Shown here: piece after piece, positions 12,749-63,304 of the stretch
Position numbering within the stretch: position 1 is the stretch's first letter
Layout: every line of letters starts with the position of its first letter
Program-made: the position numbers and the translations under genes
Notes under the pieces: model-generated
Told to the model about the DNA's origin: nothing
Database searches by the model: none
Seen by the model: the letters and a program-made list of their open reading frames with translations, nothing else
Origin: Candidatus Nomurabacteria bacterium
Lineage (GTDB): Bacteria > Patescibacteriota > WWE3 > UBA101185 > UBA10185
Assembly (NCBI GenBank): GCA_020631855.1
Contig: JACKGU010000002.1
Span: 159,447-223,446 of the forward strand
Length of the DNA stretch: 64,000 nucleotides
Reading direction: 5' to 3'

Positions 12749-12757
12749 TGTATTGGA

Positions 12758-14248
12758 TTACTTTTTATCGCCATAGTCATTTAATATTATTTTATGGGTA
12801 GCTTTTGCCGATAAAATAACTCCGGGCACACCTCCGCCCGGATGAACGCTTGCGCCAACGAAATATAAATTTTTAATATTTTCTGCCTTGTTATGGGGCC
12901 TGAGAGAGGCTATTTGATCGTACCTGGGCTGTAAGCTCCAGCATGCCCCAAGATAGTTATTGCGCTCAGTCCTGAAATTTAGCGGAGTAAAAACTTTTTG
13001 AACCTCAATATTATTTCTCAAATTCTCCAATCCAAAAGAATTTTCGAGAAAGTCTATAATTTTATTTGAGAAAGGCTCAGCTTCGACATCCCAGTCAATA
13101 TTTGCAGCAAGATTCGGGACAGGAACAAGCAGATACAGGCTCTCGCAACCCTCAGGAGCCATAGACTTATCGGTTCTACTTGGCGCATGCAGATACATAG
13201 AAAAATCATCAGGTAAAACCTTGCTTTTAAAGATGTCTTGAATCAATCCTTTGTATCGTTTTGAAATAATAAGTGTGTGATGCAACAACTGGGGGTATTG
13301 CTTTTTAATTCCCAGGTATAAAACAACACAGCTCATGCTATAGTGCATTTTCTTTATTTTTGAAGATTTCCACTTTCCTCTGCTTCTTCCTTTAAGTAAA
13401 TCTAAATAGGTGTTTGCAAAGTGTGAGTTAGATACAACAATGTCAAAACTATAAAACTCTGGTCCAACCCTTACACCTTTTGCGGCATCGTCCTCTACAA
13501 CTATTTCTGTAACTTCTGTGTTTGTTTTAATAACACCCCCGTTTTTTTTAAAAAGTTCGCTCAGAGCCTCCACAACGCTATACATGCCTCCTTTTGTAAA
13601 CCACACTCCCCCATCCTTTTCCAAGTAAGGAAGCATTAAAAACACCGATGGTGTAATAAAGGGGTTTCCACCAATAAATAATGCGTGGAATGAGAACAAG
13701 AATCTTGCTCTAAAGTCCTTGAAGAACCTTGCCACAACCCAATAAGAAGGAAGAATTGCCCCGGTTATTAGTGCTTTTGGAAAATAACCTATAAAATCGA
13801 ACATGCTTAAAAAAGGCTTAGAGCCCAGTCCGTCTAGGATTACCGATTTATACAAATTTTTTGAATAACGCATAAAGCTATAGTATGCCTTTCCATCTTT
13901 CGTATTGAATCTTGTAAGTTGTTCAACCATTTGGTTCTCATCTCCGGAATAGTCAATGTAGGTCTTATCGTGAAAGTAAATTCGATAATATGGGTCTAAA
14001 GCTTGTAGATCTAAATAAGACTTACGGTCTTCGCCAAAGAGTTGAAACAGTTCATCAATAAGGAAAGGTAGCGTAATAATGGAAGGGCCCATATCGAACG
14101 TGTATCCTTTTTCTTTGTATTGACTGGCATGGCCCCCAACAGAAGAATTTTTTTCAAAAATCGTGACCTTATAACCTTCGGATAAGAGCCTGAGCGCTAT
14201 GGAAAGTCCTCCAAAACCAGAACCTATAACAGCAGCCGTTTTATTCAT
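12758..14248 (-). CDS. Phytoene desaturase family oxidoreductase (CrtI/CrtN-like)
   Basis: N-terminal AVIGSGFGGLSIALRL FAD fold, ~496 aa, adjacent to the synthase gene. Confidence 0.65.
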   Translation of the reverse strand: MNKTAAVIGSGFGGLSIALRLLSEGYKVTIFEKNSSVGGHASQYKEKGYTFDMGPSIITLPFLIDELFQLFGEDRKSYLDLQALDPYYRIYFHDKTYIDYSGDENQMVEQLTRFNTKDGKAYYSFMRYSKNLYKSVILDGLGSKPFLSMFDFIGYFPKALITGAILPSYWVVARFFKDFRARFLFSFHALFIGGNPFITPSVFLMLPYLEKDGGVWFTKGGMYSVVEALSELFKKNGGVIKTNTEVTEIVVEDDAAKGVRVGPEFYSFDIVVSNSHFANTYLDLLKGRSRGKWKSSKIKKMHYSMSCVVLYLGIKKQYPQLLHHTLIISKRYKGLIQDIFKSKVLPDDFSMYLHAPSRTDKSMAPEGCESLYLLVPVPNLAANIDWDVEAEPFSNKIIDFLENSFGLENLRNNIEVQKVFTPLNFRTERNNYLGACWSLQPRYDQIASLRPHNKAENIKNLYFVGASVHPGGGVPGVILSAKATHKIILNDYGDKK

Positions 14249-49964: not shown

Positions 49965-50621
49965 ATGACTACAACACCTGTAACAAACAGTATAAACACT
50001 GTGTTTTCCGCAAACTCAGATATAGAGAATGAGACACTTATAGATGCAAAAAGGTTCATGAATGAGCACTACGGCAATAAATATTCTCACATACCGCCCC
50101 ACATCTCATACACAATAATGCCTCTTCCCGAGTACAACTTTGAAAGAGCCAAAGATGATTTAATAGCTTATGTCATAAAACAAAAACCTTACTTGCTAAA
50201 GCTCTCGGATCTTAAATTCGACAATAGGGATAATTTATTTTATATAGAAGTATCTGGTAAAGATATGCAAAGGCTGCACGAAGATATTACCATCTTGCTC
50301 AACAAACACAGGGAAGGTTTTATTAGAGAAAAAGATTTAGAAAGAATATCTAAAGGATATTTTAACGATAATGAGCTGGAATACCTAAGACAGTATGGTT
50401 ATTCGAGGGTATTTGAATGTTTTCGCCCGCACATTTCAATAGGCAACTTTACAGTGGAAAACGTAGATGTGCCGGAACTTACAAAAATACTTAAAGAAAA
50501 ATTAACCGGCGTGTTAAACAAAAGCTTAGTACTTAATAACATTCGAGCACTTTTTCATACTGACGCGGGCAGTCAACAAGAAGCGGAGGTTTTTTGGGAA
50601 AGCAACTATCTGCTGTCTTAG
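49965..50621 (+). CDS. 2H phosphoesterase (LigT-like) family protein
   Basis: Two H-x-S/T-x motifs: PPHISYTIM and RPHISIGNF. Confidence 0.5.
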   Translation: MTTTPVTNSINTVFSANSDIENETLIDAKRFMNEHYGNKYSHIPPHISYTIMPLPEYNFERAKDDLIAYVIKQKPYLLKLSDLKFDNRDNLFYIEVSGKDMQRLHEDITILLNKHREGFIREKDLERISKGYFNDNELEYLRQYGYSRVFECFRPHISIGNFTVENVDVPELTKILKEKLTGVLNKSLVLNNIRALFHTDAGSQQEAEVFWESNYLLS

Positions 50622-50825: not shown

Positions 50826-50960
50826 TCGATGGTGAGGGCGGTGGGGATCGAACCCACGACACCCTGGTTAACGCCTAATTCGCAGGCTCATAAGGCGTTC
50901 ACTGAATCAGAACGATTCAGTGTAAAAGCCCTCTGCTCTACCACTGAGCTGTCTTATATA
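50826..50960 (-). pseudogene. Disrupted tRNA-Lys(TTT)-like copy: intact 3' half, ~52-bp insertion in the anticodon loop, degenerate 5' half
   Basis: The first 42 bp TGGTGAGGGCGGTGGGGATCGAACCCACGACACCCTGGTTAA match tRNA-Lys at 62782 with 2 compensatory T-stem changes. After a 52-bp insert, AAAAGCC and TGCTCTACCACTGAGCT (D-arm) follow, but the acceptor 5' strand cannot pair. Confidence 0.6.
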
Positions 50961-51014
50961 GAGAGTCTTAATGTTTTGGCTGATGTAGCTGTTTGTATGA
51001 TTGAACGTTAATCC

Positions 51015-51136
51015 GATACTACTATGTATAGTAGTATATATACTAGTATCGATAGTAGTATGCATAGTAGTATAAAAAATTCCGCGCAGTACTGTACCCA
51101 GTAGTACCTACAGTACTGTGTACACTAGTGTCATAG
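51015..51136. repeat. Iteron-like short repeats (ATAGTAGTAT x4 including one inverted; AGTACTGT-type x3)
   Basis: gATACTACTATgtATAGTAGTATatatactagtatcgATAGTAGTATgcATAGTAGTATaaaa ... CAGTACTGTACCCAGTAGTACCTACAGTACTGTGTAC. Confidence 0.65.
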
Positions 51137-51186
51137 ATATCGGCTATTGCTAATCTCTAGATGCCTGGCTTTAAGATATTAGAATC

Positions 51187-51477
51187 TTAATAAAATTTAT
51201 ACTTTTTTGGTTTTTTCTTGCCAAATATTTTCTTAAGCTCAGACTCTGTTTCATATCCGTTGTAGGTCTCGCTCAAAGCATACTCTACAAGCGTCTTAAA
51301 CGACTGTCCTGAGTTAGTTCTTAGATTAGATAGTATTTTCCACCACCCGATATCTAAACGTATTTGAAATGTCTTTTTTTGTAACTTTGTCGACATATAT
51401 AACCCCTCACGGGGTAGTTCCCCCAGCCGTTTCCTTTCTGGTGATTCACGTTCTTGCCTGTGCTTTTGTGTCCTCAC
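51187..51477 (-). CDS. Small basic protein, possibly a ribbon-helix-helix DNA-binding protein
   Basis: Internal start MSTKLQKKTFQIRLDIGWWKILSNL... has a beta-strand then helix pattern. Sits next to the iteron-like repeats. Confidence 0.3.
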   Translation of the reverse strand: MRTQKHRQERESPERKRLGELPREGLYMSTKLQKKTFQIRLDIGWWKILSNLRTNSGQSFKTLVEYALSETYNGYETESELKKIFGKKKPKKYKFY

Positions 51478-52096
51478 CCAGAAAAGGTCTGGGTCCTGTG
51501 TGTTCTACGTAATTACATAACTTTTTCTCTTCATCATCTGTTTATCACCGTCAGAGGTTTCCGTATGGGACGCAGTTAGTGATACTTCTTTCGACCAGGC
51601 CCTTATCGGTGCACGGGCTTTAGACTGCGCAGCCCCTACTGTAAGTCTTAATGACTTTTGAGTGTGAGAAACATCACTCAGAAATCATCAATTCTGTGGC
51701 GCGCGTTTTTATTTGTGAGTGAAAGTTTAGATAATGGAGAAAATAGCATGATGCCCATTAAAAAAACTCCTCACACAAACATTTACTGATGTTTTCAATT
51801 TCTATTTGCTAACTCAGTAAAGGCTGTATTTGGAGTCACGGACTCAGCTTTTGGGTGTTTTACCCAAGCCTTACAATTTCATTTTCGTATAAAAGTCGAT
51901 TTGTGTCAATAGGTAAATGTTGTTGTGACAGTAAATAATGGCAATTATAGGTAAGTATGCATCAATATCGCAATGCGATAGTTTACCCAAAACTTAGATC
52001 CTTATATGAAGATTAACTCTGAGGTATAATCAGAGTATGTTGTAGCTACAACATATGCCATTAAGGCTTAGTTACCTTTAGCAGAAAGATATTTGT

Positions 52097-53674
52097 ATGT
52101 CAGATGAACAAAAAAGACTTTTAGAAAAACAGCTATGGGCTGTTGCCAATACCCTTAGGGGAAAAATGAATGCCGACGAGTATAAAAACTACATACTCGG
52201 CTTCATCTTTTATAAGTACTTATCCGAAAAACTAGAAAAGTATATTAACGAAACCCTCTTATCACGTGAAAGTTTTAAATTTGCTGAAATAAAAGAAGAA
52301 ACAGACGAGGGTAAAAAGATACTAGAAGAGATAAAAAAGGCTTGTGTAAACCATTTGGGCTTTTTCTTACAACCAAACGAACTGTTTTCACACATAGTTA
52401 AAAAAGGTAAGGGAGAACTAAAAGATCAATCTACTTTCATACTGGAAGATCTAAAAGTAATACTAGACACTATCGAAAAGACCTCAATGGGAACAGATAG
52501 CGAAGACGACTTTAAAGGCTTGTTTGATGATGTAGATCTTACCTCTTCTAAGCTTGGTTCAAGCGAAAATAAGAAAAACGAAGCTATTGTAGAGGTACTA
52601 AAACTCCTAAATGGCATAGATTTCAGACTAGAAGACTCAAAAAGTGATCTGTTGGGCGATGCATATGAGTATCTTATTGGTGAATTTGCCGCGGGAGCAG
52701 GTAAAAAGGGTGGTGAGTTCTATACACCTGCGCAGGTTTCAAGATTGTTGGCGCAATTTGTAACTGTTGGGAAGAAAAAAATACGCTCAGTTCTAGACCC
52801 AACCTGTGGTTCTGGATCTTTATTACTCAGACTTAGAGATTATGTTGAGGTAGCTGATTATTACGGGCAAGAGCTTAATCCAACCACATACAACCTAGCA
52901 CGAATGAATATGATTCTTCACGGAGTGCACTTTGATCATTTCACAATAAGACAAGGCGACACTCTAACAGAAGATAGATTTCCTGACTTACAAGCAGAAG
53001 CTATTGTAGCCAATCCACCATTTTCAGCTAAATGGAAGAGTGAAGATGATCCCGCGCTTGTTCATGATGAGAGATTTTCACAATATGGACGTTTAGCACC
53101 AAAAAGTGCAGCGGATTATGCCTTTGTAACTCACATGCTTCACCACCTTAGCGAGAACGGTACTATGGCCATTGTCCTACCACATGGAGTGCTTTTTAGG
53201 GGTGGATCTGAGGGGCAGATAAGAAAACATATCATAGCTAAGCAAAACACCCTGGACGCTGTTGTGGGGCTCCCAGCGAACCTTTTTTATGGCACTTCTA
53301 TCCCTGCATGTGTCCTTGTATTCAAGAAATGCAGACAAGACGATGATGATATTTTATTTATAGATGCCAGTAAGGATTTTGAGAAAAACAAGAATCAGAA
53401 CTATCTAACAGATGAGAATATCAAAAAGATCTTTGAAACTTATAAAGACAGAAAAGAAATTGAAAAGTACTCCCATAAAGCCACACTGGAAGAGATAAAA
53501 GAAAACGATTTTAACCTCAATATCCCAAGGTATGTCGACACATTCGAAGAACCTGAAGAAATTGATATCAAACAAGTTGCACACGAACTACAAAAGTCAG
53601 TAAAAAGAGAGCCTGACATTAAAGCGAAGCTTAATGAAATCCTAGTAGAACTTAATTTGGAAAGTCCTTTTTAG
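52097..53674 (+). CDS. hsdM: Type I restriction-modification N6-adenine DNA methyltransferase subunit
   Basis: HsdM N-terminal domain, AdoMet motif DPTCGSGS, catalytic VANPPFS. Confidence 0.9.
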   Translation: MSDEQKRLLEKQLWAVANTLRGKMNADEYKNYILGFIFYKYLSEKLEKYINETLLSRESFKFAEIKEETDEGKKILEEIKKACVNHLGFFLQPNELFSHIVKKGKGELKDQSTFILEDLKVILDTIEKTSMGTDSEDDFKGLFDDVDLTSSKLGSSENKKNEAIVEVLKLLNGIDFRLEDSKSDLLGDAYEYLIGEFAAGAGKKGGEFYTPAQVSRLLAQFVTVGKKKIRSVLDPTCGSGSLLLRLRDYVEVADYYGQELNPTTYNLARMNMILHGVHFDHFTIRQGDTLTEDRFPDLQAEAIVANPPFSAKWKSEDDPALVHDERFSQYGRLAPKSAADYAFVTHMLHHLSENGTMAIVLPHGVLFRGGSEGQIRKHIIAKQNTLDAVVGLPANLFYGTSIPACVLVFKKCRQDDDDILFIDASKDFEKNKNQNYLTDENIKKIFETYKDRKEIEKYSHKATLEEIKENDFNLNIPRYVDTFEEPEEIDIKQVAHELQKSVKREPDIKAKLNEILVELNLESPF

Positions 53675-54825
53675 TGGTGGTACTAGAAAAAGCATTATTA
53701 GTACCGCCTTTGAGATTTAAAGGGTTTACTGGTAATTGGAACGAGGTGTCGCTGAAACAGCTTCTTACTCCTATTGAGAGAAAAACAAAAAAACCAGCTG
53801 AGAGTTACACATCGATTGGAATACGAAGCCACTTTAAAGGTACTATGCAAAGATACGACACTGATCCTAAAAGTAATTCTATGGAATATCTCTACTTAGT
53901 ACATAAGGACGATTTTATTCTAAACATAACATTTGCTTGGGAAGGCGCTCTAGCTATTGCGAGGGAAGAAGATGATTTAGGTTATGTATCTCACAGATTT
54001 CCAACATATCGAGTTAATGAGGATATCGTTACAAAGGAGTTTTTTCAATATCTGTACCCAACGGAAAGAATGAAATATAACTTAAGAAATATATCTCCAG
54101 GCGGTGCAGGTCGAAATAGAGTGTTAAATAAAAGGGATTTTCTTAAATTGAAAGTAAAGATTCCTGAAACAGATGAGCAAAATAAGATATCTGAGTTTAT
54201 GCGCTCTCTGGAAGATTGGATACAAAACTTAAAATCACAAAAGGAAGAACTTGAGAAATATAAAAAAGGCATGATGCAGAAGATTTTCTCTCAAGAGATT
54301 AGGTTTAAAGATGGTAATGGTAAAGATTATCCCGATTGGAAAGATGTTAAATTCAAAGACATCTTTGTTGTAGGTAGTGGTAAAGATTATAAGCATCTAC
54401 AAAGCGGTGATATTCCAGTTTATGGTACAGGTGGTTACATGACCTCAGTTAATGATTATCTCTATGAGGGCGAAAGTGTAGGTATTGGAAGAAAAGGTAC
54501 AATCGATAAGCCTATATTTCTTAAAAACAAGTTTTGGACTGTGGACACACTATTTTATACACATTCTTTTAAGGGCGTTTTACCTTATTTTGTTTTCTTA
54601 TTGTTTCAAAACGTGAATTGGAAGAAATACAACGAGGCTTCAGGTGTACCAAGTCTATCTAAAAACACTCTTTATACAATCAAAACTAGGGTACCTAGTA
54701 TCGACGAACAAAACAAAATTATAGCGTTGTTCACGTCTTTAGAAGATCTAACAAGTTCAAAGCAAAATCAAATAGAAAAAGCAGAAATGTGGAAAAAAGG
54801 TTTATTGCAGGAGATGTTTGTATAA
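53674..54825 (+). CDS. hsdS: Type I restriction-modification specificity subunit
   Basis: Two target-recognition domains separated by conserved helical spacers. Start overlaps the hsdM stop. Confidence 0.8.
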   Translation: MVVLEKALLVPPLRFKGFTGNWNEVSLKQLLTPIERKTKKPAESYTSIGIRSHFKGTMQRYDTDPKSNSMEYLYLVHKDDFILNITFAWEGALAIAREEDDLGYVSHRFPTYRVNEDIVTKEFFQYLYPTERMKYNLRNISPGGAGRNRVLNKRDFLKLKVKIPETDEQNKISEFMRSLEDWIQNLKSQKEELEKYKKGMMQKIFSQEIRFKDGNGKDYPDWKDVKFKDIFVVGSGKDYKHLQSGDIPVYGTGGYMTSVNDYLYEGESVGIGRKGTIDKPIFLKNKFWTVDTLFYTHSFKGVLPYFVFLLFQNVNWKKYNEASGVPSLSKNTLYTIKTRVPSIDEQNKIIALFTSLEDLTSSKQNQIEKAEMWKKGLLQEMFV

Positions 54826-56451
54826 ATGAACAAAGAGCTTATACGAAGTATTGCTGCTTCGAAAAACAGCCTAATAGTAGGACTCGCCGGACCTGGTACG
54901 GGAAAAAGCTATACATTTAAGGAAATTGTTCTATCTGAAGATTATAAAGGCAAAAAAATATTAATCCTGTCTTTTATAAATAAACTTGTAGATGATCTAA
55001 AAGATGATTTTGAAAAATTCGAAAACGTAGAAGTCTCCACATTGCACGCCTTTGCCTATATAAATATGGGCGAGGTACTACTAAACGAAAATTTGGATAA
55101 ATATATTAGTGAAGACTATAAATACATTTTTGGTTCAGACATAAACTATGCCGAGAAGTTTTATCAAAACGCACTAACCGAGGAAGAAGAAACATTCTAT
55201 TTCAACAGAAGTGCATACTATAGATATGACAGGGACTTATATTCCTTTAATTCAATAATATACAAATTCAATCAACTCATGAATGCTTCTGATAGTAATA
55301 TCCCGCGATATGATTTGATTCTAATTGATGAATTTCAAGATTTTAATAGTCTTGAGGTAGAGCTAATTCAACTGTTGAACAAGGTTAATAAAGTTGTTGT
55401 AGTGGGAGATGATGACCAATCACTATACGCTTTTAAAAAAGCTAAACCTGATAAAATACGCGATCTCTATAGAAGTGAGAACACATATAGCTTTTCTCTA
55501 GATAACTGCTACAGATGTCCAAAAGTTATTGTGGATGCAACTAATAATCTAGTAAAAAATGCTGTCGAAAATAACTACTTACAGGAAAGGGAGAATGCAA
55601 AAAAGTTTCTATATCCTGAAGAAGATCCGAATCATACGAAAAAGCATGAAGTTAGTGAAAAGTATCCAAAAATATATTTTGCACAACAAAAGCAAGGGGA
55701 TCTATTAACCTATTCCTTAGTAAAGTTTATCAAAGATGACGTAACTGAGAATGATGGTGGACGTGTTCTTGTTATCTGCCCAAGATATCTGATGAATAGT
55801 ATTTACGACGGATTAACAAGTAAAGGTCTTAATGTTATTGACTTTGAGCTTTTCTCTAGCGAAGAAAAAAATAAAATTAAACACTCTGAATTAATAAAAG
55901 CCCTTGAAATATTATCCACTAGGAAAACGGATAATTTGGCTTTGAGACAACTTCTAAATAAATATGTATCTGATGATTTCCTAAAGGAAAGCATCAAATC
56001 TTCCCATACTGAAAACAAGAAACTGTGGTCATACTTAGTTGAGGATACTCGGACAAATATTGAAGAGGATGTTACTTTATTTAAAAAAGTGAGAAAAGGA
56101 AAGGACGATCTTACCGAGACCGACTTATTAAAGTTAAACCAGCTTTTTAATCTGAAAAACATACTATCCAAAATGATAAACGGATTTAACGCTGTCAAAA
56201 AAGGAGCTATTGAGGTTGAATTAACTACAACGGTAAGTTCCAAGGGGTTATCTGCAGAATTTGTGTATTACTTGGCTATTGATGATAGCGACATGCTAGA
56301 TAGAGATACAGGAACAATTACAGACAACAAACTTTGCGAATTCTTAGTGGGTATGACAAGGGCAAAAAGTAAATTGGTACTTATTTCGCGAAAAGACGCA
56401 CATCCTAAAATATTGGAGTTTTTGGATGATTCTTATATTGAAACTATATGA
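54826..56451 (+). CDS. UvrD/PcrA-like SF1 helicase embedded between hsdS and hsdR
   Basis: Motif I GLAGPGTGKS, II LILIDEFQDF, III VVVGDDDQSLYAFKKA, IV CYRCPKVIV, VI VGMTRAKSKLVL. Confidence 0.7.
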   Translation: MNKELIRSIAASKNSLIVGLAGPGTGKSYTFKEIVLSEDYKGKKILILSFINKLVDDLKDDFEKFENVEVSTLHAFAYINMGEVLLNENLDKYISEDYKYIFGSDINYAEKFYQNALTEEEETFYFNRSAYYRYDRDLYSFNSIIYKFNQLMNASDSNIPRYDLILIDEFQDFNSLEVELIQLLNKVNKVVVVGDDDQSLYAFKKAKPDKIRDLYRSENTYSFSLDNCYRCPKVIVDATNNLVKNAVENNYLQERENAKKFLYPEEDPNHTKKHEVSEKYPKIYFAQQKQGDLLTYSLVKFIKDDVTENDGGRVLVICPRYLMNSIYDGLTSKGLNVIDFELFSSEEKNKIKHSELIKALEILSTRKTDNLALRQLLNKYVSDDFLKESIKSSHTENKKLWSYLVEDTRTNIEEDVTLFKKVRKGKDDLTETDLLKLNQLFNLKNILSKMINGFNAVKKGAIEVELTTTVSSKGLSAEFVYYLAIDDSDMLDRDTGTITDNKLCEFLVGMTRAKSKLVLISRKDAHPKILEFLDDSYIETI

Positions 56452-59246
56452 CACATCAATCAGAACAACAACTAGAAAATACACTAATAAACCAACTACA
56501 AAGACTTGGATTTACGTTGGTTAATATCCAAGATACTAATGATTTGTACGTCAACCTACTCAAACAACTTGAGAAGTTTAACAATACAGAATTTTCTGAA
56601 TACGAGTTTGATCAGATCGTTAACTATTTACACAAAGGTGATAGATTTCAAAAAGCCAAAACACTAAGAGATCGCTTTGTTTTGCATAGAGATGATGGCA
56701 CTACTTTTTGGGTTAGGTTCTTCAACACAGACAAGTGGTGTAAGAACGAATACCAAGTTACGCACCAAGTAACTCAAAAAGGCAAATATGAAAACAGATA
56801 CGATGTAACACTTCTTATAAACGGGCTGCCTCTTGTTCAAGTAGAACTAAAACGCAGAGGTATGGAAATGAAAGAAGCTTTCAACCAAATACAGCGTTAC
56901 CATAAGCACACGTTTACAGGAACTTTATTTGAATACGTACAGATATTTGTTATCTCAAACGGAGTAAATACAAAATACTTTTCCAATAATCCTAAACAAT
57001 CGTTTGAACAAACATTTTACTGGACTGATGTAGACAACAGAAAAGTAACTAAACTAGATGAGTTTACAGAGGTATTTTTAGAAAAATGCTTTGTTTCCAA
57101 GATGATAGCAGAATACACAGTACTAGCAGAAGCACTTCAAATACCTATGGTATTGCGCCCGTATCAATACTACGCAGTAAAGGCAATTGAAAAAAGAGTA
57201 TTAGAAACAAATAAGAACGGTTATATCTGGCACACAACAGGATCAGGTAAAACACTAACATCTTATAAAGCAAGCCAGATACTTTCACAAATGCCAGATG
57301 TTAAAAAAGTTATGTTTGTTGTGGACAGAAAGGACTTGGACATCCAAACTACTAAAGAGTTCAATTCGTTCTCTGAGGGCTCTGTAGACGGTACAAATAA
57401 CACTCATAACCTAGTACAACAACTAAAAGACAATAACAGAAAGCTTATTGTTACAACTATTCAGAAGCTTGATATTGCAATAAGCAAGGAACACTATCTT
57501 AAGCAATTTGAAGATTTAGCAAATGAAAAAGTAGTCATAATCTTTGATGAATGCCATAGATCTCAGTTTGGTCAAACACACGCCAGAATAAAAAGCTTCT
57601 TTAACAATGCACAACTGTTTGGATTTACTGGCACACCTATCTTTGCAGATAACAATGTTGGCGGAGTTACAACAAAAGACGTATTTGATGAGTGTCTTCA
57701 CAAATACATCATCACAAACGCTATTTCAGACGGTAATGTCTTAGGATTTGCGGTTGAATATGTCGGAAGATACAAACAAAAAGCACCTGATACTTTGGAT
57801 GCAGATATTTTTGCAGATGCATTAGTTGAGGGAATAGATAAACGTGAAGTTCTTGAAAGCGATGATCGACTTAATAAGATTGCAAACTATGTACTAGCTG
57901 ACTGGAAGCGTAAAACCAAATCAGGCAAGTTTAATGCCATTTTTGCAGTAACAAGCATTGAAGTACTCAAAAAATACTACACATTGTTTAAAGCTAAAAA
58001 GTCCGAAGACTTCAAAATAGCAACAATCTTTACGTATCAAGCAAATGAAAACGAGAGTGAAGACATGTTAGATGTAGATGTATTTGCCTTTGAAGACGCG
58101 CCTGTAAACCAACATTCTAGGGATTATTTGGAAGATTGTATAAAAGACTACAACAGTCTCTTTTCTACAAACTACTCTACAGATCGATTCTATGACTACT
58201 ACAGAGACCTACAGGGAAGAATTAAGAACAAAGAAGTAGATTTGGTCATTGTAGTGAATATGTTTTTAACTGGTTTTGACAGCAAAAGACTAAATACTCT
58301 TTATGTTGATAAAAACTTGAGATATCACGGGCTTATACAAGCATATTCACGGACAAACAGAACACTGACCTCTGATAAACCACATGGAAATATAATCTCA
58401 TTTAGAAACCTAAAAGAAGCAACAGATAAAGCACTAGCCTTGTTTGGTGATGAAAATGCCAAAGAAGTTGTTTTTAAAAAACCATATGAAGAGCAAAAGA
58501 AAGAGTTTGAAGCAAAGTTATCTGACCTTAAAGAAAAGGCGCCTACACTTGAGTCTATTGATGAATTAAAAGGCGAAGAAGAAAAAGCTGAATTTGTAAA
58601 AACATTCAGAGATCTCTTGCGCATAAAGTCTTCTTTAGAAACGTTTGCAGAATTTAGCTTTGATGACTTAGGTGTATCTGAACAAGAGTTCTATGACTAT
58701 CAAAGCAAATACCTAGATATTTATGAAGAGCGCAGGAACAACAGCCCAGAGGCAGAATCAATACTAGATCAAATAGATTTTGAGCTAGAGCTTACTATCC
58801 GAGATATTATCAACTTCGATTACATCATCATGTTGATAGCAGGACTTAAAAACATTAGTTCTGACGCGATAAGGGAGAAGAAAACAGAGGATATTCTTAA
58901 GATCTTTGACCGTGATGTACAGCTAAGAAAGAAGAAAGAACTGATTAGGAAGTTTATCGAAGAGAATCTACCAAAGGTTACAAAAGCAGATGATGTTGAA
59001 AAGGCATTTAGTGATTTCTGGCAAAGTGAAAGAGCTACAGTGCTCAAAAAACTAGCCGAAGACGAAAATATTCCGTCCGAAAACATTGAAAAGCTGATTG
59101 GTGAGTATCTATACACTCAAAAGCTTCCACAAGAACAGGACATAGCAGATATGCTACCAGAACAACCAAGAATCCTTGAAAGAAGTAGTATTATTGAACG
59201 TATAAAAACAGCTATAGAAAATATAGTTGATATATTTGAATGGTAA
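56448..59246 (+). CDS. hsdR: Type I restriction enzyme R subunit
   Basis: N-terminal nuclease motif DVTLLINGLPLVQVELKRRG, SF2 ATPase motifs HTTGSGKTLTS and FDECHRSQ, ~932 aa. Overlaps the helicase stop by 4 bp. Confidence 0.9.
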   Translation: MTHQSEQQLENTLINQLQRLGFTLVNIQDTNDLYVNLLKQLEKFNNTEFSEYEFDQIVNYLHKGDRFQKAKTLRDRFVLHRDDGTTFWVRFFNTDKWCKNEYQVTHQVTQKGKYENRYDVTLLINGLPLVQVELKRRGMEMKEAFNQIQRYHKHTFTGTLFEYVQIFVISNGVNTKYFSNNPKQSFEQTFYWTDVDNRKVTKLDEFTEVFLEKCFVSKMIAEYTVLAEALQIPMVLRPYQYYAVKAIEKRVLETNKNGYIWHTTGSGKTLTSYKASQILSQMPDVKKVMFVVDRKDLDIQTTKEFNSFSEGSVDGTNNTHNLVQQLKDNNRKLIVTTIQKLDIAISKEHYLKQFEDLANEKVVIIFDECHRSQFGQTHARIKSFFNNAQLFGFTGTPIFADNNVGGVTTKDVFDECLHKYIITNAISDGNVLGFAVEYVGRYKQKAPDTLDADIFADALVEGIDKREVLESDDRLNKIANYVLADWKRKTKSGKFNAIFAVTSIEVLKKYYTLFKAKKSEDFKIATIFTYQANENESEDMLDVDVFAFEDAPVNQHSRDYLEDCIKDYNSLFSTNYSTDRFYDYYRDLQGRIKNKEVDLVIVVNMFLTGFDSKRLNTLYVDKNLRYHGLIQAYSRTNRTLTSDKPHGNIISFRNLKEATDKALALFGDENAKEVVFKKPYEEQKKEFEAKLSDLKEKAPTLESIDELKGEEEKAEFVKTFRDLLRIKSSLETFAEFSFDDLGVSEQEFYDYQSKYLDIYEERRNNSPEAESILDQIDFELELTIRDIINFDYIIMLIAGLKNISSDAIREKKTEDILKIFDRDVQLRKKKELIRKFIEENLPKVTKADDVEKAFSDFWQSERATVLKKLAEDENIPSENIEKLIGEYLYTQKLPQEQDIADMLPEQPRILERSSIIERIKTAIENIVDIFEW

Positions 59247-59249
59247 AAA

Positions 59250-60011
59250 ATGAGCGAATACTATAACCCACAGAGATCAAAAAAATATTGTTACGACAAA
59301 AACAGCACTGAACCATTCAAGCTAAGCAGATCTAAGATAGATAACTTTATTAGTTGCCCACGATGTTTTTATATTGATCGAGTTTTAGGAACTTCCCAAC
59401 CCCCAGGATTTCCTTTTGCGCTGAACAGTGCAGTTGACGCGTTACTTAAAAAAGAATTTGATTATCATCGTACATCTGATAAAGAACACCCACTTATTAC
59501 AAAATATGGTGTAGATGCGAAACCAGTAGCACATGAAAGTCTTGATGACTGGCGAAATAACTTTGTTGGGGTTCAGTATCTTCATGAACCAACAAATCTA
59601 CTTGTTTTTGGCGCGATTGATGATTTATGGATCAGCTCAAAAGGAGAATACATTGTTGTAGATTACAAATCCACCAGTAAGAGCGAAGAAATAACTGAAC
59701 TTAACAAAGACTGGCAAGATGGCTACAAGCGCCAAATGGAAGTATACCAGTGGCTTTTAAGAAACAACGGGTACAAGGTATCTGATACAGGTTACTTTGT
59801 TTACTGCAATGGAAACACCGATCTAGAAGCTTTTGACGCCAAACTAGAGTTTGATGTAACTCTTATTTCTTATACTGGTGACGACTCTTGGGTGGAACAG
59901 ACAATCTTTGATATTAAGAAGTGTTTGGATTCAGATAAGATACCTGAAAGCGCACCTGATTGTGATTACTGTGCGTATTACAACACTAGAGATAAACACG
60001 AGAAGATATAA
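59250..60011 (+). CDS. Cas4/RecB-family PD-(D/E)XK nuclease with four Cys (putative Fe-S cluster)
   Basis: GAIDDLW ... GEYIVVDYKS (D...E.K), QMEVYQWL (QxxxY), N-terminal CPRC and C-terminal CDYC. Begins 4 bp after the hsdR stop. Confidence 0.6.
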   Translation: MSEYYNPQRSKKYCYDKNSTEPFKLSRSKIDNFISCPRCFYIDRVLGTSQPPGFPFALNSAVDALLKKEFDYHRTSDKEHPLITKYGVDAKPVAHESLDDWRNNFVGVQYLHEPTNLLVFGAIDDLWISSKGEYIVVDYKSTSKSEEITELNKDWQDGYKRQMEVYQWLLRNNGYKVSDTGYFVYCNGNTDLEAFDAKLEFDVTLISYTGDDSWVEQTIFDIKKCLDSDKIPESAPDCDYCAYYNTRDKHEKI

Positions 60012-60136
60012 AACACAGTTTTCAAAAAACCTGACCTGTTAAAACTGTCTACGGTACATCAAATCCAAAGCAAAAAATAGATTTTTAGACCTGCGGTGGT
60101 TTTCAAGATTGTTGTGCTTTAAAGCATAGACCTACC

Positions 60137-60330
60137 ATGTTATGCAACATTTCTCATTTTTATATATTTGTTACAACACACTTTTATACTTATAAATGTT
60201 ACACAACATTTTTGTTGTAACTGTTGTAACAACGAATACTAAAGTTACAGCAGATTGAAAATGTGTAGACAAATATGTGTAAGTTTATAAGCATTTGTGT
60301 TGTAACATTGTGATACAAGCCAAACTGTTA
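60137..60330. promoter_or_regulatory. Array of GTTGTAAC/GTTACAAC palindromic half-sites and -10-like TGAGGTATAATC upstream of mrr
   Basis: ATGTTATGCAACAT, TGTTACAACAC, ATGTTACACAACATT, TTGTTGTAACTGTTGTAACAACG, TGTGTTGTAACATTGTG. TGAGGTATAATC also occurs upstream of hsdM at 52021. Confidence 0.45.
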
Positions 60331-60399
60331 ACACATTTATTATTACAATAACTAAGCTATAGATGTTGAGGTATAATCTATTCATAAGGATTAAAAAAT

Positions 60400-61299
60400 A
60401 TGTCTATACCAACATTTGATGAAACATTCTTACCAATATTGAACATTCTCTCAAAAGGAGAAACTTTAAAGACATCTGATCTTCCCAGTCTTTTATTGGA
60501 AGATGGGCATTTCTCGTTATCCGAAGAAGAACAGAAGAAAAAGATATCTAGTGGTTCAAATATGTTTTCCAATAGAGTCTACTGGGGAGTTACATATCTC
60601 AGACAAGCCAAACTTGTAGAGCGCCCCTCTAGGGGATTTGTAAAAATAACTCAAAAAGGTTCTGACTATCTAGCAACCAATCCAAGTGAGTTAACACTTA
60701 GCTGGATTAAACAAGATTCGGATTATCAGGCATATGAACCAGTGCGATCAAAGCAAAAAGATGAAGAAGAAAGTTTTGATATTGGAGGCATGTCTCCTCA
60801 AGACCTGATAGATCAAGGTGTGAGGAAACTCAACGAGCAATTAAAGAATGACTTAATAGAAAAACTTCACGAAAGCAATCCTTACTACTTTGAAAAGATT
60901 GTTCTTATACTCTTTAAAAAGATGGGTTATGGTGATTTCCAAGAAACTCCAAAGTCTGGTGATGGCGGAATAGATGGAATAATAAATAACGATCTACTAG
61001 GTCTTGAAAAAATCTATATACAAGCAAAAAGATATGCGGAAACAAATAAGGTTAGAGAACCAGAAATACGAAATTTCATTGGCGCAATGAGTGGCGATGT
61101 GAGCAGGGGTATATTTGTTACAACATCTGAATTTGATGACTCCGCAAAACAAAAGGCAAGAGACGCTCACAACCACAAAATAATACTTATAGATGGTGAT
61201 AGATTAACTGATTTGATGATCGAATATAATGTAGGCGTTCAAGTACAAGCCTCTTTTGACGTTAAAGATGTTGATGAAGACTTCTTTGAATTAGGTTAA
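60400..61299 (+). CDS. mrr: Mrr-family type IV (modification-dependent) restriction endonuclease
   Basis: Mrr_N winged helix, then catalytic domain FEKIVLILFKKMGYG ... GDGGIDGI ... IYIQAKRY. Confidence 0.7.
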   Translation: MSIPTFDETFLPILNILSKGETLKTSDLPSLLLEDGHFSLSEEEQKKKISSGSNMFSNRVYWGVTYLRQAKLVERPSRGFVKITQKGSDYLATNPSELTLSWIKQDSDYQAYEPVRSKQKDEEESFDIGGMSPQDLIDQGVRKLNEQLKNDLIEKLHESNPYYFEKIVLILFKKMGYGDFQETPKSGDGGIDGIINNDLLGLEKIYIQAKRYAETNKVREPEIRNFIGAMSGDVSRGIFVTTSEFDDSAKQKARDAHNHKIILIDGDRLTDLMIEYNVGVQVQASFDVKDVDEDFFELG

Positions 61300-61376
61300 T
61301 ACAACTCTCGCATTGCGAGAGTCCTGTATGGTTGCACACTTCCTAAAATCCTTTACCATGGAGCTGTAGCTATCCT

Positions 61377-62909
61377 ATGAAAAACACAGCTATCGCTTAC
61401 ATTCGCGTAAGCTCAGAAGAACAAGTAAAAAACTACTCACTAGCTAATCAAAAAGAATATTGTGAAAAATATGCGCGGGAAAATGATTTAGATTTAGTAA
61501 AGATATTCAAAGAAGAGGGTAAATCCGCAATGAATATTGATCGTCCCGCTCTAATTTCCCTACTAGAGTACTGTAGAAAAAACACTGGCAAAGTAGATTA
61601 CTTAGTTCTTTATAAAATAGACAGACTATCACGCTCAACAATCGATTATCTAGAAATAAAAAGACGTTTAGCTAAATACGGTGTACAAGTTAAATCTGTT
61701 ACAGAGTTCACAGACGATACTCCTATGGGTGAGTTCATGGAAACTCTTATTGCCGCACAAGCCAAACTAGACAATGCTATAAGAGCCGAGCGGGTAAGTG
61801 ATGGTATTAGAAAAAGAGTTGAATCAGGACTACCTGTTAGCGTTCCACCAATAGGTTATAAGCTATCTAAAGGTAATAACGGCAAAAGCATTACAATACC
61901 AGACGAACCCACTTTCTCCCTTTTACAAAGAGCTGGTTATCAGTACCTTACTGGAAACTATACTTTCACCGAATTGGCGGAGTTACTCAATAAGTGGGGG
62001 TTTACTACAAAGAAAGGTAATCCCGCGACATCTAACTTTGTAGGTAAGTTTCTAAGAATGTCTTTTTACAAGGGAATTATCTACTCAAAGAAATGGAAGA
62101 AAGAATACAGAGGTATGCATATACCAATGTTTACTGATAACGAATGGGACGATATCCAAGATATTGTAGACGGAAACCCTTTAACAATTAAGAAAAAGCA
62201 AAGAGCAGAAGAGTTTCCCCTAAGAGGATTCGTTACGTGTAGCGTAACAGGAGATCCACTAACAGGTTCTTGGTGTAAAGGTAATACAAAACACTACGCA
62301 TACTACTATTCACCATCAAAGTATAAATCTATTCCAAAAGATACTCTAGAAAGTGAATTTACGGCTTTGTTGGACCTTATAGAGCCAGCGCCAGGTGTTA
62401 TAGAGTCTTTCTCACGTGTTTTATTTGATAAATATAATGAAAAGTACTCAAAGCTACTACAAAACGAACAACTATTATCAGATCAGATAAAAGATATAAA
62501 CGGTGTGGGAAATGAGGTGGAAGATGACTTGGCGGTGAAAAACCTAATAAAAAATGAAAACAAAATAAATATGATAACTATAGAGACCGCTAGGAACTTT
62601 TCAGAACATTTCTTAGAACACATATCCCAGTATTGGAGAACTGCCCACCTAAGAGACAAAGTTAAAATACAAGAAGTATTATTCCCTCAGGGACTTACTT
62701 ACACGTATCCTGAATTTTTAGAACCTAGGATAAGCTGTCTTTATAAGATAAATACGGAAAAGTCGACTCTCAATCATTTATTGGTGAGGGCGGTGAGGAT
62801 CGAACTCACGACACCCTGGTTAAAAGCCAGGTGCTCTACCACTGAGCTACGCCCCCTCGATAAGCTTATAAATTGTTACAAAAATATGGAAGAAGTGCAA
62901 TATTTTTAA
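61377..62909 (+). CDS. Large serine recombinase (integrase); true 3' end probably before or at the tRNA-Lys gene
   Basis: Resolvase catalytic domain AIAYIRVSSEEQ ... YKIDRLSRS, a recombinase domain, and a Cys-containing segment CSVTGDPLTGSWCKG. The ORF stays open across antisense tRNA-Lys (62782-62856). Confidence 0.7.
   Translation: MKNTAIAYIRVSSEEQVKNYSLANQKEYCEKYARENDLDLVKIFKEEGKSAMNIDRPALISLLEYCRKNTGKVDYLVLYKIDRLSRSTIDYLEIKRRLAKYGVQVKSVTEFTDDTPMGEFMETLIAAQAKLDNAIRAERVSDGIRKRVESGLPVSVPPIGYKLSKGNNGKSITIPDEPTFSLLQRAGYQYLTGNYTFTELAELLNKWGFTTKKGNPATSNFVGKFLRMSFYKGIIYSKKWKKEYRGMHIPMFTDNEWDDIQDIVDGNPLTIKKKQRAEEFPLRGFVTCSVTGDPLTGSWCKGNTKHYAYYYSPSKYKSIPKDTLESEFTALLDLIEPAPGVIESFSRVLFDKYNEKYSKLLQNEQLLSDQIKDINGVGNEVEDDLAVKNLIKNENKINMITIETARNFSEHFLEHISQYWRTAHLRDKVKIQEVLFPQGLTYTYPEFLEPRISCLYKINTEKSTLNHLLVRAVRIELTTPWLKARCSTTELRPLDKLINCYKNMEEVQYF
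62782..62856 (-). tRNA. tRNA-Lys (TTT), CCA encoded
   Basis: Reverse complement GGGGGCGTAGCTCAGTGGTAGAGCACCTGGCTTTTAACCAGGGTGTCGTGAGTTCGATCCTCACCGCCCTCACCA. Confidence 0.8.
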
Positions 62910-62923
62910 AAAATAGCTCGTAT

Positions 62924-63304
62924 TTATTCAGTGTCTATCTTTTTGGGTTGTCGTTCCTTAACCCTTACAGCCGCTTTACCTTTTTTATCTCGTAAATAAT
63001 AAAGCTTGGCACGTCGTACTTTGCCCATTCTTGTAACTTCGAGTTTTTCAATGTTTGGAGAATATAAAGGGAAAATTCTTTCTACACCAATGTTATCAGC
63101 ACCGATTTTTCTTACCATAAAGGTCTTTGACATGCCCTCGCCTTTTTTGGCAATCACAATGCCTTCATATGGCTGGGTTCTGGTTTTATTACCCTCTGTA
63201 ATTTTATAATGTACCTTTACAGTATCCCCTACTCTAAAGTTTGGGATGTCGGCAGGAGTTGCTATAACAGCGCTATTAGACTGAGTTATTTGTTCTTGTG
63301 ACAT
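62924..63304 (-). CDS. rplS: 50S ribosomal protein L19
   Basis: [35 protein letters not shown]...TFMVRKI...[11 protein letters not shown] matches the L19 consensus. Confidence 0.8.

What the first reader, a model, noticed from the sequence alone, without database searches (positions are those of the whole stretch)
50826..62856. ~12-kb integrated defense island bounded by a disrupted tRNA-Lys-like copy and intact tRNA-Lys(TTT), with a large serine recombinase
A 42-bp block identical to the 3' half of tRNA-Lys(TTT) (2 compensatory mismatches) occurs at 50826-50867, in the same orientation as the intact gene at 62782-62856. Between them lie iteron-like repeats, an RHH-like gene, a five-gene type I RM operon, Mrr and a serine recombinase abutting the tRNA. 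Host housekeeping genes (rplS, clp) resume immediately after the tRNA. This is the signature of a tRNA-targeted integrative element carrying anti-phage cargo.
Basis: partly seen in the sequence, partly recalled or inferred. Interest (0 to 1): 0.8.

Follow-up and report, generated by a model that had tools for sequence, protein, structure and literature searches.

The report
Serine-integrase defence island at tRNA-Lys
An 11.95-kb island carrying restriction-type anti-phage genes sits at the 3' end of a lysine tRNA gene in a Patescibacteria genome, and its integrase belongs to a broad, little-described group of large serine recombinases that consistently sit against tRNA genes, a habit usually ascribed to tyrosine integrases.

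Summary
The 42-nt repeat is at 50830-50871, not 50826-50867. It matches 62782-62823 at 40/42, and the two mismatches form a compensatory T-stem pair.

The region between the repeats holds:
- 12-nt tandem repeats
- a small RHH-like ORF
- an hsdM-hsdS-helicase-hsdR-nuclease operon
- Mrr
- an intact large serine recombinase (LSR)

The LSR ORF runs antisense through the whole tRNA-Lys(UUU) gene. Host rplS and clpB follow.

Two new points emerged. First, the left copy is not just a 3' half. After a 51-nt insert in the anticodon loop it continues with a 25/28 match to the D-arm region. Second, the LSR belongs to a clade in which 39 of 61 loci end on a convergent tRNA gene, covering 15 anticodons. 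The spacing is fixed at 34-37 nt, and target identity tracks LSR relatedness. Sister elements at tRNA-Lys have 17-47-nt repeats.

No empty site or excised form was found, because no close relative is available. All near-identical strains carry the island. Distant relatives show unoccupied ligase/tRNA-Lys and rplS/tRNA-Lys junctions.

Verdict: a real LSR-type integrative defence island. The crossover position is unresolved. Serine integrases at tRNA genes are rare but already reported.

The parts
49965..50621 (+). Host left flank, not part of the island: 2'-5' RNA ligase-like / DUF1045 gene.
   Evidence: Pfam PF06299 and PF13563. In relative L200 the homologue (62% identity) is followed 12 nt later by an unoccupied tRNA-Lys(UUU) in the same convergent orientation.
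50830..50871 (-). Left direct repeat: a copy of tRNA-Lys(UUU) from the CCA end to the anticodon loop. The left island boundary (attL crossover) lies somewhere inside this block.
   Evidence: 40/42 identity to 62782-62823. The mismatches are a compensatory T-stem pair. The first 33 nt match the distal copy of sister element L201 at 32/33.
50872..50922 (-). Unique 51-nt insert at tRNA position 37/38 of the left copy, forming two hairpins. The flanking TAA is duplicated.
   Evidence: Sequence. Fold -49.3 kcal/mol, z = -4.0 for the whole pseudo-tRNA. No other copy in the window or in any fetched locus.
50923..50950 (-). Continuation of the left tRNA-Lys copy: anticodon loop, 5' anticodon-stem strand and D arm. 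Homology stops at about tRNA position 9.
   Evidence: 25/28 identity to 62821-62848. No significant homology beyond it. Three clustered changes create GAGGGC, which is complementary to the acceptor 3' strand.
51016..51134 (.). Iteron-like repeat field: a 12-nt period of AGTAGTAT-type units, partly palindromic, followed by AGTACTGT-type units.
   Evidence: the repeat finder families D1, D2 and I1. TRF period 12, 4.3 copies, at 51023-51074. The AGTACTGT-type units up to 51134 were read by eye; no repeat tool reported them. Function not tested.
51187..51396 (-). Small ORF of 69 aa (96 aa if read from the GTG at 51477) with an RHH-like sequence pattern. Candidate regulator or directionality factor of the integration module.
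   Evidence: No hit in Pfam, NCBIfam, PADLOC or PHROGs. Its only homologue, P0140 (69% identity), lies directly upstream of another LSR gene in L202.
52097..53674 (+). hsdM, type I methyltransferase.
   Evidence: PF02384 E 8.5e-112. PADLOC MTase_I E 3.6e-169.
53674..54825 (+). hsdS, type I specificity subunit.
   Evidence: PF01420. PADLOC Specificity_I E 5.3e-116.
54826..56451 (+). SF1 UvrD-type helicase embedded in the R-M operon (GajB-like).
   Evidence: PF00580 and PF13245. PADLOC GajB E 8.5e-30. NCBIfam hits are far below the equivalog cut-offs.
56448..59246 (+). hsdR, type I restriction subunit.
   Evidence: PF18766, PF22679, PF12008 and PF04313. PADLOC REase_I E 7.6e-296.
59250..60011 (+). 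PD-(D/E)XK, Cas4-like nuclease; last gene of the operon.
   Evidence: PF12705 E 6.9e-13. PADLOC Cas4 E 1.9e-12.
60400..61299 (+). Mrr-type type IV (modification-dependent) restriction enzyme.
   Evidence: PF04471 and PF14338. PADLOC mREase_IV E 9.3e-68.
61377..62909 (+). Large serine recombinase. The conserved, structured protein ends near residue 464 (~62770). The remaining ~45 codons are antisense tRNA plus spacer.
   Evidence: PF00239 E 7e-37 and PF07508. phrog_95 integrase E 1.6e-74. AF2 model pLDDT 80 overall, below 50 for residues 465-510. Foldseek top hits are full-length Bxb1, A118-type and PhiC31 integrases.
62782..62856 (-). Intact tRNA-Lys(UUU), the attR side. 62782-62823 is the right copy of the repeat.
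   Evidence: ARAGORN. Rfam tRNA 72.6 bits.
62924..63304 (-). Host right flank, not part of the island: rplS, followed by clpB.
   Evidence: PF01245 and the ClpB domains in the gene tables. The same rplS-then-tRNA-Lys(UUU) order, unoccupied, is seen in relative L022.

Best explanation
Window 50830-62781 is an 11.95-kb integrative genomic island. A large serine recombinase (LSR) inserted it at the 3' end of the host tRNA-Lys(UUU) gene.

What is shown:
- The LSR gene is the last gene of the island and converges on the tRNA.
- The island's LSR-proximal end supplies the DNA that now follows, and partly forms, the tRNA 3' end, so the tRNA stays intact.
- A second copy of the tRNA 3' segment marks the far end.
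- The cargo is a type I R-M operon with an embedded SF1 helicase and a Cas4-like nuclease, plus an Mrr type IV enzyme.
- The island has no transfer or virion genes.

What is inferred: attP x attB recombination by the LSR dimer-of-dimers mechanism, with a 2-bp staggered cut.

Where the cut falls is unresolved. I favour (about 55:35) a crossover in the CCA/acceptor 3' strand, within the first ~10 nt. On that reading the tRNA-like sequence at 50840-50950 is the island's own P' arm, perhaps a decaying island-borne tRNA-Lys. The alternative is a crossover in the anticodon loop.

The small RHH-like protein is probably part of the integration module. The island looks fixed in the sampled population.
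For: Anatomy.

Cargo.

The LSR is intact. The catalytic residues (Y8 R10 S12 Q16 R83 R86) are invariant across 26 homologues. The fold matches full-length serine integrases.

Clade behaviour:
- Many homologues end in peptides that are antisense translations of tRNAs.
- 39/61 loci have a convergent tRNA at the ORF end, and 37 overlap it, across 15 anticodons. The figure is 3/44 for distant LSRs.
- The spacer from codon 457 to the tRNA 3' end is 34-37 nt in 28/28 loci.
- Target identity clusters with LSR relatedness, and the window's LSR falls in an all-Lys subclade.

Sister elements have far-end repeats of the tRNA 3' end: L037 21 nt, L038 23 nt, L040 17 nt, L201 47 nt, L086 from -5 to +12.

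Unoccupied counterparts:
- L200 has ligase then tRNA-Lys(UUU).
- L022 has rplS then tRNA-Lys(UUU).
- The window's own tRNA-Lys(CUU) is unoccupied, while the collinear L038 genome carries a sister element there.

For a crossover near the 3' end:
- Rebuilding the 'native' tRNA from the distal copy gives mismatched T stems in L038 and L040.
- The distal copies converge on one consensus although the cognate tRNAs differ.
- Homology between L100 and L118 stops 7 nt into the tRNA.
- LSR loci without a tRNA carry only 6-15 nt of a tRNA 3' end.

RHH link to LSRs.
Against: - No empty site and no excised or attP form was found. All contigs with identical rplS or ligase are occupied. Exact-junction patterns gave no hit in the metagenome or viral collections. 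Mobility is therefore inferred, not shown.
- G+C content of the island (0.32-0.40) barely differs from the flanks.
- A 42-nt (or longer) repeat is long for an LSR site. It implies that one half-site of attP is almost identical to one half-site of attB, which is unusual for characterised LSRs (established knowledge of Bxb1, PhiC31 and A118 att sites).
- The zinc-ribbon domain is degenerate, with only 2 Cys and a Pfam score below cut-off.
- The near-complete pseudo-tRNA with its insert is not predicted by any simple integration model.
- The evidence on crossover position is indirect and partly conflicting. Relative L021 shares the A-T state of the polymorphic T-stem pair with the intact copy, and L200 matches the intact copy over its first 33 nt, whereas L022 shares the G-C state with the left copy.
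Confidence: 0.8

Rival explanations
1. Same island, classical geometry. The crossover lies in the anticodon loop at the inner edge of the 42-nt repeat. The left 42 nt are the host's displaced original 3' half, and the 3' half of the intact tRNA came from the island. The insert and the D-arm-like block are island DNA of unrelated or accidental origin.
For: - The repeat runs exactly from the CCA end to the anticodon loop. This is the classical sublocation for tRNA islands (Williams 2002, cited in PMC7192596).
- Both copies have perfectly paired T stems.
- L201 has a repeat of similar length (47 nt) ending in the anticodon loop.
- In both loci the anticodon-stem sequence of the distal copy matches the host type: CCTGG in the window, GCGGC in L201.
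- The ligase/tRNA-Lys adjacency in L200 puts the left copy at the ancestral tRNA position.
Against: - It leaves the collinear 25/28 D-arm block unexplained.
- Sister elements L037, L038 and L040 have repeats of only 17-23 nt, and in L038 and L040 this reconstruction gives mismatched T stems.
- Distal copies of three elements share one T-arm variant although host tRNAs vary.
- The intact copy's first 33 nt are identical to the unoccupied tRNA of L200.
Confidence: 0.35
2. The left copy is an old host tandem duplicate of tRNA-Lys, now a pseudogene. The island inserted between the two copies at the 3' end of the functional one. The true left boundary would then be near 50952-50985, and the 42-nt repeat would not be an att product.
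For: - The left copy covers almost the whole tRNA, not only the 3' part.
- An 8-nt inverted repeat, TCAATCAT/ATGATTGA, flanks a junction reconstructed at TGG (read).
- A similar ATGATT motif lies in the far arm of L037.
Against: - No copy of even 7-21 nt of the tRNA 3' end exists at that proposed boundary, unlike every sister element with both ends in view.
- The distances of the motif from the junction differ between the window and L037.
- The 8-mer is weak evidence.
- L200 shows a single tRNA-Lys next to the ligase.
Confidence: 0.08
3. The region is not a mobile island of the LSR. The repeat stems from a lost tyrosine-integrase element or from local rearrangement. The LSR would then be an unrelated or domesticated recombinase that happens to lie next to the tRNA.
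For: - No excision product or empty site was found.
- The island is present in all sampled strains.
- Composition is similar to the host.
Against: - The clade-wide, fixed-geometry association of this LSR family with tRNA 3' ends.
- Repeats in sister elements.
- No tyrosine recombinase domain in any island ORF scanned.
Confidence: 0.05

Closest known systems
Tyrosine-integrase genomic islands and prophages in tRNA genes (P4, pSAM2 and L5 types; Islander/TIGER islands)
   Same: An intact tRNA at the integrase end, a direct repeat of the tRNA 3' segment at the far end, an integrase gene adjacent to the tRNA, accessory or defence cargo, and target gene function preserved.
   Different: The integrase is a large serine recombinase, not a tyrosine recombinase; no PF00589 was found. 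Serine integrases use short sites and a 2-bp staggered double-strand cut with subunit rotation, and need no long core identity.
Serine recombinases reported or predicted at tRNA genes: Mycobacterium AICEs at one tRNA-Leu (Ghinet et al. 2011, PMC3218068), 14/297 S-Int islands in TIGER (Mageeney et al. 2020, PMC7192596), and phage phiRSM small serine recombinase at tRNA-Ser
   Same: A serine-family integrase with a tRNA gene as the integration site.
   Different: Those are single-target cases or unverified predictions described as rare. Here the LSR is part of a broad clade using at least 15 tRNA species with constant geometry, the ORF runs into the tRNA, and the hosts are largely Patescibacteria and other uncultured lineages. 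I did not test whether the mycobacterial AICE recombinases belong to this clade.
SCCmec-type cassettes (CcrA/B/C) and other LSR elements (Bxb1, PhiC31, A118, TP901-1, XisF)
   Same: Same enzyme family. The best NCBIfam hits are CcrB and XisF, far below their cut-offs, and the fold matches Bxb1, A118-type and PhiC31. Like SCC, this is a small cargo island without its own transfer genes, inserted at the 3' end of a conserved housekeeping gene.
   Different: The target is a tRNA gene rather than a protein gene. There is a single recombinase. The zinc ribbon is degenerate. The repeats are much longer than typical LSR cores.
Elements whose attP lies inside a gene, so that integration rewrites the product (SSV1-type integrases; integration-dependent immunity of mycobacteriophages BPs/Brujita); from my own knowledge, not checked here
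   Same: The integrase ORF crosses the recombination site, so its C-terminal tail must differ between the excised and integrated states.
   Different: In those systems the effect is demonstrated and involves tyrosine integrases. Here the tail is unconserved and predicted disordered, so it may be a by-product.

Membership tests
Large serine recombinase (serine integrase) | N-terminal resolvase-type catalytic domain with the Ser nucleophile and conserved Arg residues | tested here: met
   PF00239 E 7e-37. Y8 R10 S12 Q16 R83 R86 are invariant in 26 homologues. PDB sequence hits to TP901-1, TnpX and gamma-delta resolvase catalytic domains.
Large serine recombinase (serine integrase) | Recombinase domain (PF07508) following the catalytic domain | tested here: met
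   30 bits against a cut-off of 21.1. Foldseek aligns ~520 columns to full-length Bxb1 and A118-type integrases at probability 1.0.
Large serine recombinase (serine integrase) | Zinc-ribbon domain with four Cys ligands | tested here: inconclusive
   PF13408 scores 16.7 bits, below the 25.3 cut-off. Only two Cys remain in the window protein and its Lys subclade, while most clade members keep CxxC...C. The model still shows the beta-ribbon at 286-320.
Large serine recombinase (serine integrase) | Coiled-coil motif inserted in the zinc-ribbon domain | tested here: met
   Long helices at 341-375 and 382-394 in the AF2 model, pLDDT 81-92. This is model-based only.
Large serine recombinase (serine integrase) | Catalyses attP x attB integration | not testable with these tools
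   Needs a recombination assay or junction reads.
tRNA-gene integrative genomic island | Intact tRNA at one end and a direct repeat of its 3' segment at the other | tested here: met
   62782-62856, and 50830-50871 at 40/42 identity.
tRNA-gene integrative genomic island | Integrase gene at the tRNA-proximal end | tested here: met
   The LSR at 61377-62909 overlaps the tRNA.
tRNA-gene integrative genomic island | Unoccupied site in related genomes | tested here: inconclusive
   All places shown for the ~23 contigs each that carry an identical rplS or ligase protein are occupied. The exact empty-junction pattern gave 0 hits in metagenome contigs. Only distant relatives are available: L200 (ligase then tRNA-Lys) and L022 (rplS then tRNA-Lys).
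tRNA-gene integrative genomic island | Excised circular form (attP junction) | tested here: inconclusive
   The attP junction pattern gave 0 hits in viral contigs. No variant of the LSR with the alternative C-terminus appears among homologues.
Tyrosine-integrase tRNA island | Tyrosine recombinase (PF00589) gene | tested here: not met
   No such domain in any of the island ORFs scanned.
Type I restriction-modification system | HsdM, HsdS and HsdR in one operon | tested here: met
   Start and stop codons abut or overlap.
Type IV (Mrr) restriction enzyme | Mrr_N plus the Mrr catalytic domain | tested here: met
   PF14338 and PF04471. PADLOC mREase_IV E 9.3e-68.
Gabija | GajA (OLD-family ATPase-nuclease) together with the GajB helicase | tested here: not met
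   Only a GajB-like helicase is present. No GajA hit in any island protein.
Prophage or integrative conjugative element | Virion or packaging genes, or a conjugation apparatus | tested here: not met
   None among the island ORFs. The remaining non-coding stretch is only ~620 nt.

The most novel reading that the evidence does not exclude
This LSR clade works by swapping the DNA downstream of tRNA genes. The cut lies in the encoded CCA/acceptor end, which is common to all its targets. The element originally brings its own tRNA copy on the P' side, so both recombination products keep a tRNA. The redundant copy then decays, which would explain the 17-68-nt tRNA-like far-end repeats. Because the integrase ORF spans attP, its C-terminal tail is rewritten on integration and could report the integrated or excised state. 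If one half-site of attP and attB is equivalent, the reaction might be intrinsically reversible, unlike that of characterised serine integrases.
Probability: 0.2. Interest if true: 0.75.

Novelty: new variant of a known kind. Interest (0 to 1): 0.55.

Why it matters
tRNA genes are the classic landing sites of tyrosine integrases. The main genome-wide surveys held that serine integrases are 'not known for targeting tRNA genes' (PMC7192596), and the largest LSR catalogue does not mention tRNA at all (PMC10083194).

A diversified LSR clade that retargets among many tRNA species while keeping one rigid geometry would be useful in three ways:
- It is a natural experiment in how serine integrases evolve new site specificity.
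- It is a source of integrases for conserved, ubiquitous target sites.
- It is a route by which genome-reduced Patescibacteria acquire defence systems.

There is also a practical annotation point. Because the ORF overlaps the tRNA, the NCBI and JGI gene calls omit this recombinase. That omission may have hidden the pattern.

Tried and rejected
**Searches that found nothing or gave no comparator**
- An exact-pattern scan for the empty site (left flank plus full tRNA) in metagenome contigs gave 0 hits. The matching scan for the attP junction in viral contigs also gave 0 hits.
- Look-ups of contigs encoding identical rplS and ligase returned only occupied copies.
- The genome-contig scan with rplS found nearest relatives at only 75-79% identity, with no left-flank synteny.
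- Ligase homologues reach at most 64% identity. L200 has no synteny beyond the tRNA.

**Sequence tests on the left copy and its surroundings**
- I tested whether the left copy extends into the tRNA 5' flank. It does not: 1731/2000 shuffles score as well for the window, and 522/2000 for L201.
- I looked for relics of older integrations in the 209 nt between the ligase and the left copy. Nothing was significant.
- I looked for other copies of the 51-nt insert and found none.
- Rfam at E <= 1 over 50000-64000 hits only the real tRNA.
- RNA folding of 51400-51700 on both strands gave z = -0.9 and -1.7, so there is no case for a structured RNA.

**Attempts to locate the crossover or find free forms**
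- None of the 18 contigs tested, LSR loci with and without an adjacent tRNA, has terminal overlaps indicating a circular form.
- Inspection of dyad symmetry to locate the crossover gave only short, inconsistent inverted repeats, so I dropped it.

**Other**
- A second island at the window's tRNA-Lys(CUU) was ruled out. That stretch holds carotenoid-type genes and no recombinase.
- Viral-contig relatives of the LSR are distant (24-34% identity) and mostly lack the tRNA association. I used them only as a control.

Full report
**1. Origin and observation**

The window is part of GCA_020631795.1, contig JACKGV010000006.1. This is a Patescibacteria MAG that NCBI labels 'Candidatus Nomurabacteria bacterium'.

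ARAGORN and Rfam find tRNA-Lys(UUU) at 62782-62856 on the minus strand. It matches 62782-62823 at 40/42. The two mismatches are tRNA positions 52 and 62, which pair with each other: GTGAG/CTCAC in the gene and GTGGG/CCCAC in the copy. Both versions therefore come from functional tRNAs.

**2.

The similarity does not stop after the 42 nt. A unique 51-nt insert follows, at 50872-50922. It sits at tRNA position 37/38, forms two hairpins and has a duplicated TAA. After it the similarity resumes, with 50923-50950 matching 62821-62848 at 25/28.

The left copy is thus a near-complete tRNA-Lys pseudogene covering positions ~9-76.
- It lacks the 5' acceptor strand.
- ARAGORN and Rfam do not call it.
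- Homology ends sharply, and the flanks beyond are unrelated.
- The insert occurs nowhere else in the data held.
- Three clustered substitutions turn the 5' anticodon-stem strand into GAGGGC, which can pair with the acceptor 3' strand in the predicted fold. I regard this as unexplained.

**3. Contents of the island**

From left to right:

| Coordinates | Feature |
|---|---|
| 51016-51134 | repeat field with a 12-nt period |
| 51187-51396 (-) | 69-aa ORF with an RHH-like pattern, no family match |
| ~620 nt | no convincing ORF or RNA structure |
| 52097-60011 | operon hsdM-hsdS-SF1 helicase-hsdR-PD-(D/E)XK nuclease |
| 60400-61299 | Mrr |
| 61377-62909 | LSR |

The helicase scores as GajB-like, but there is no GajA, so this is not Gabija.

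The LSR is intact, with conserved catalytic residues. A confident AF2 model (mean pLDDT 80) finds full-length Bxb1, A118-type and PhiC31 integrases as best structural matches. Its zinc ribbon has lost two Cys ligands.

The ORF has no stop before the tRNA. It reads antisense through the whole tRNA and ends 53 nt beyond it. The corresponding residues 465-510 are unconserved and predicted disordered.

The NCBI and JGI gene calls omit this CDS, whereas ENA and Logan call it.

**4. Evidence from relatives of the recombinase**

About 130 homologues were found at 24-55% identity. Many have C-terminal peptides such as GIEPATS, GFEPTTS or RIELTxSP, which are antisense translations of tRNA T arms.

I fetched 80 metagenomic loci and five genome loci. 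The results were:
- 39 of 61 evaluable loci have a tRNA gene on the opposite strand at the ORF end, 37 of them overlapped by the ORF. They cover 15 anticodons: Lys, His, Pro, Gly, Val, Glu, Ser, Met, Leu and Ala.
- Only 3 of 44 more distant LSRs from viral contigs do so.
- The distance from LSR codon 457 to the tRNA 3' end is 34-37 nt in 28 of 28 loci.
- LSRs that are more alike use the same tRNA. The window's enzyme groups with four others that all sit at tRNA-Lys.

This is the behaviour of a site-specific integrase clade that retargets among tRNA genes.

**5. Sister elements with both ends in view**

| Locus | LSR identity to window (%) | Target | Far-end repeat of the tRNA 3' end | Element size |
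|---|---|---|---|---|
| L037 | 53 | tRNA-Lys(UUU) | exact 21 nt | 4.7 kb |
| L201 | 47 | tRNA-Lys(UUU) | 47 nt, reaching the anticodon loop as in the window | 8.3 kb |
| L038 | – | tRNA-Lys(CUU) | 23 nt | – |
| L040 | – | tRNA-Lys(UUU) | 17 nt | – |
| L086 | – | tRNA-Ala | -5 to +12 | – |

Their cargo is diverse. It includes a restriction endonuclease-like gene, HTH regulators and a prim-pol/D5 replication module.

The only homologue of the RHH-like ORF lies directly upstream of another LSR gene in L202. A weak relative has the same position before a second LSR in L037. The small protein therefore probably belongs to the integration module.

**6. Empty-site test**

This could not be done properly.
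- Every contig encoding identical rplS or ligase carries the island.
- Exact patterns for the empty site and for the attP junction found nothing.
- The nearest relatives are distant.

Three partial comparators exist.
- In L200 the ligase homologue is followed 12 nt later by an unoccupied tRNA-Lys(UUU) in the same convergent orientation.
- In L022, rplS is followed by an unoccupied tRNA-Lys(UUU) on the same strand.
- The L038 genome is collinear with the first 20 kb of the window. It carries its sister element at tRNA-Lys(CUU), a site that is unoccupied in the window.

Together these make 'ligase, tRNA-Lys, rplS' a plausible ancestral arrangement. They do not prove it.

**7. Where the crossover is**

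*Classical reading.* The crossover lies at the inner edge of the 42-nt repeat, and the left 42 nt are the displaced host 3' half. This fits the window and L201.

*Evidence against the classical reading.*
- In L038 and L040 the same reconstruction yields T stems with one and two mismatches, while the intact tRNAs are perfect.
- The far-end copies of five elements converge on TGGTGAGGGCGG(T/A)GGGG although the cognate tRNAs differ.
- Homology between two closely related LSR modules stops 7 nt into the tRNA.
- Loci without a tRNA keep only 6-15 nt of a tRNA 3' end.

*Preferred reading.* I therefore favour a cut in the CCA/acceptor 3' strand. The tRNA-like sequence beyond it at the left end would then be island DNA, possibly the remnant of an island-borne tRNA-Lys that decays once redundant.

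*Limits.* This is inference. Relatives of the host give conflicting hints about which T-arm variant is native. A long identical half-site is also unusual for known serine integrases. A host tandem duplication of the tRNA is less likely, because the boundary it implies lacks any copy of the tRNA 3' end.

**8. Comparison with the literature**

- Mageeney et al. 2020 state that serine integrases had not been known to target tRNA genes. They found 14 of 297 predicted cases and called for experimental proof.
- Ghinet et al. 2011 had noted eight mycobacterial AICEs with serine recombinases at one tRNA-Leu. They called this rare and cited phiRSM, a small serine recombinase at tRNA-Ser.
- The main LSR catalogue does not mention tRNA.

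The island itself is therefore an ordinary kind of object, a tRNA-associated defence island, with an uncommon integrase type. The clade-level pattern, with its fixed geometry and an ORF that enters the tRNA, appears not to have been described in the papers I could search.

**9. Verdict**

The open points are the crossover position, the nature of the pseudo-tRNA, and whether the island is still mobile.

Noticed in passing
window 50872-50950: The left tRNA-Lys copy has a 51-nt two-hairpin insert exactly at the canonical intron position 37/38. Three clustered substitutions make GAGGGC, which pairs with the acceptor 3' strand in the predicted fold (-49.3 kcal/mol, z = -4.0). This would give an acceptor-stem plus T-arm plus CCA minihelix-like RNA.
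   Followed up: partly
L038:11298-11445 and L040:11477-11623: In two sister elements the LSR end is followed by a 21-nt tRNA-Lys 3' fragment, then a conserved GC-rich spacer of ~125 nt, and only then the intact tRNA-Lys (CUU in one, UUU in the other). In L038 the 17-nt flank of the tRNA is also duplicated at the far end. No simple integration model explains this.
   Followed up: partly
window 61377-62909; L001, L003, L004, L007: The NCBI and JGI gene calls list no CDS between rplS and Mrr, although the 510-aa LSR ORF is intact. ENA and Logan calls include it. The probable cause is the overlap with the tRNA. This may systematically hide the LSR clade from protein databases.
   Followed up: no
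window 54826-56451 and 59250-60011: A GajB-like SF1 helicase and a Cas4-like PD-(D/E)XK nuclease are embedded in the type I R-M operon, with abutting or overlapping start and stop codons. hsdM also scores on the MADS mad2 model and the helicase weakly on mad8. I did not examine whether this five-gene arrangement recurs elsewhere.
   Followed up: no
L014 and L016 (contig ends), equivalent to window ~50859: Two Logan contigs from different runs end exactly 30 nt into the left tRNA copy. This is what a k=31 graph does when another sequence in the sample shares that 30-mer with a different 5' neighbour. That sequence could be another organism's tRNA-Lys or an attP form of the island.
   Followed up: partly
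many loci, e.g. L046, L059, L062, L064, L105 (last ~30 nt of the LSR ORF): A short palindrome or hairpin sits just before the tRNA 3' end in many clade members (AGTCGACT in the window at ~62762). In addition, the far arms of L086, L105 and L064 share TGGAAC at positions 24-29 from the tRNA 3' end.
   Followed up: partly
window 51478-52096: About 620 nt between the RHH-like ORF and hsdM hold no ORF of more than 47 aa. The first 300 nt are relatively G+C-rich. There is no Rfam hit and no significant fold signal.
   Followed up: partly
window 9559-14248: A cluster of carotenoid-type genes (NDH-2-like oxidoreductase, polyprenyl synthase, phytoene synthase, phytoene desaturase-like amine oxidase) lies between the tRNA-Leu pair and tRNA-Lys(CUU). 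This is unusual cargo for a genome-reduced Patescibacteria lineage. The collinear L038 genome has different genes at this place.
   Followed up: no
L037:20331-21341: The contig with the closest LSR homologue carries a second LSR 9 kb away. It is preceded by two small ORFs, the first weakly similar to the window's RHH-like protein. This is the same three-gene order as in L202.
   Followed up: partly
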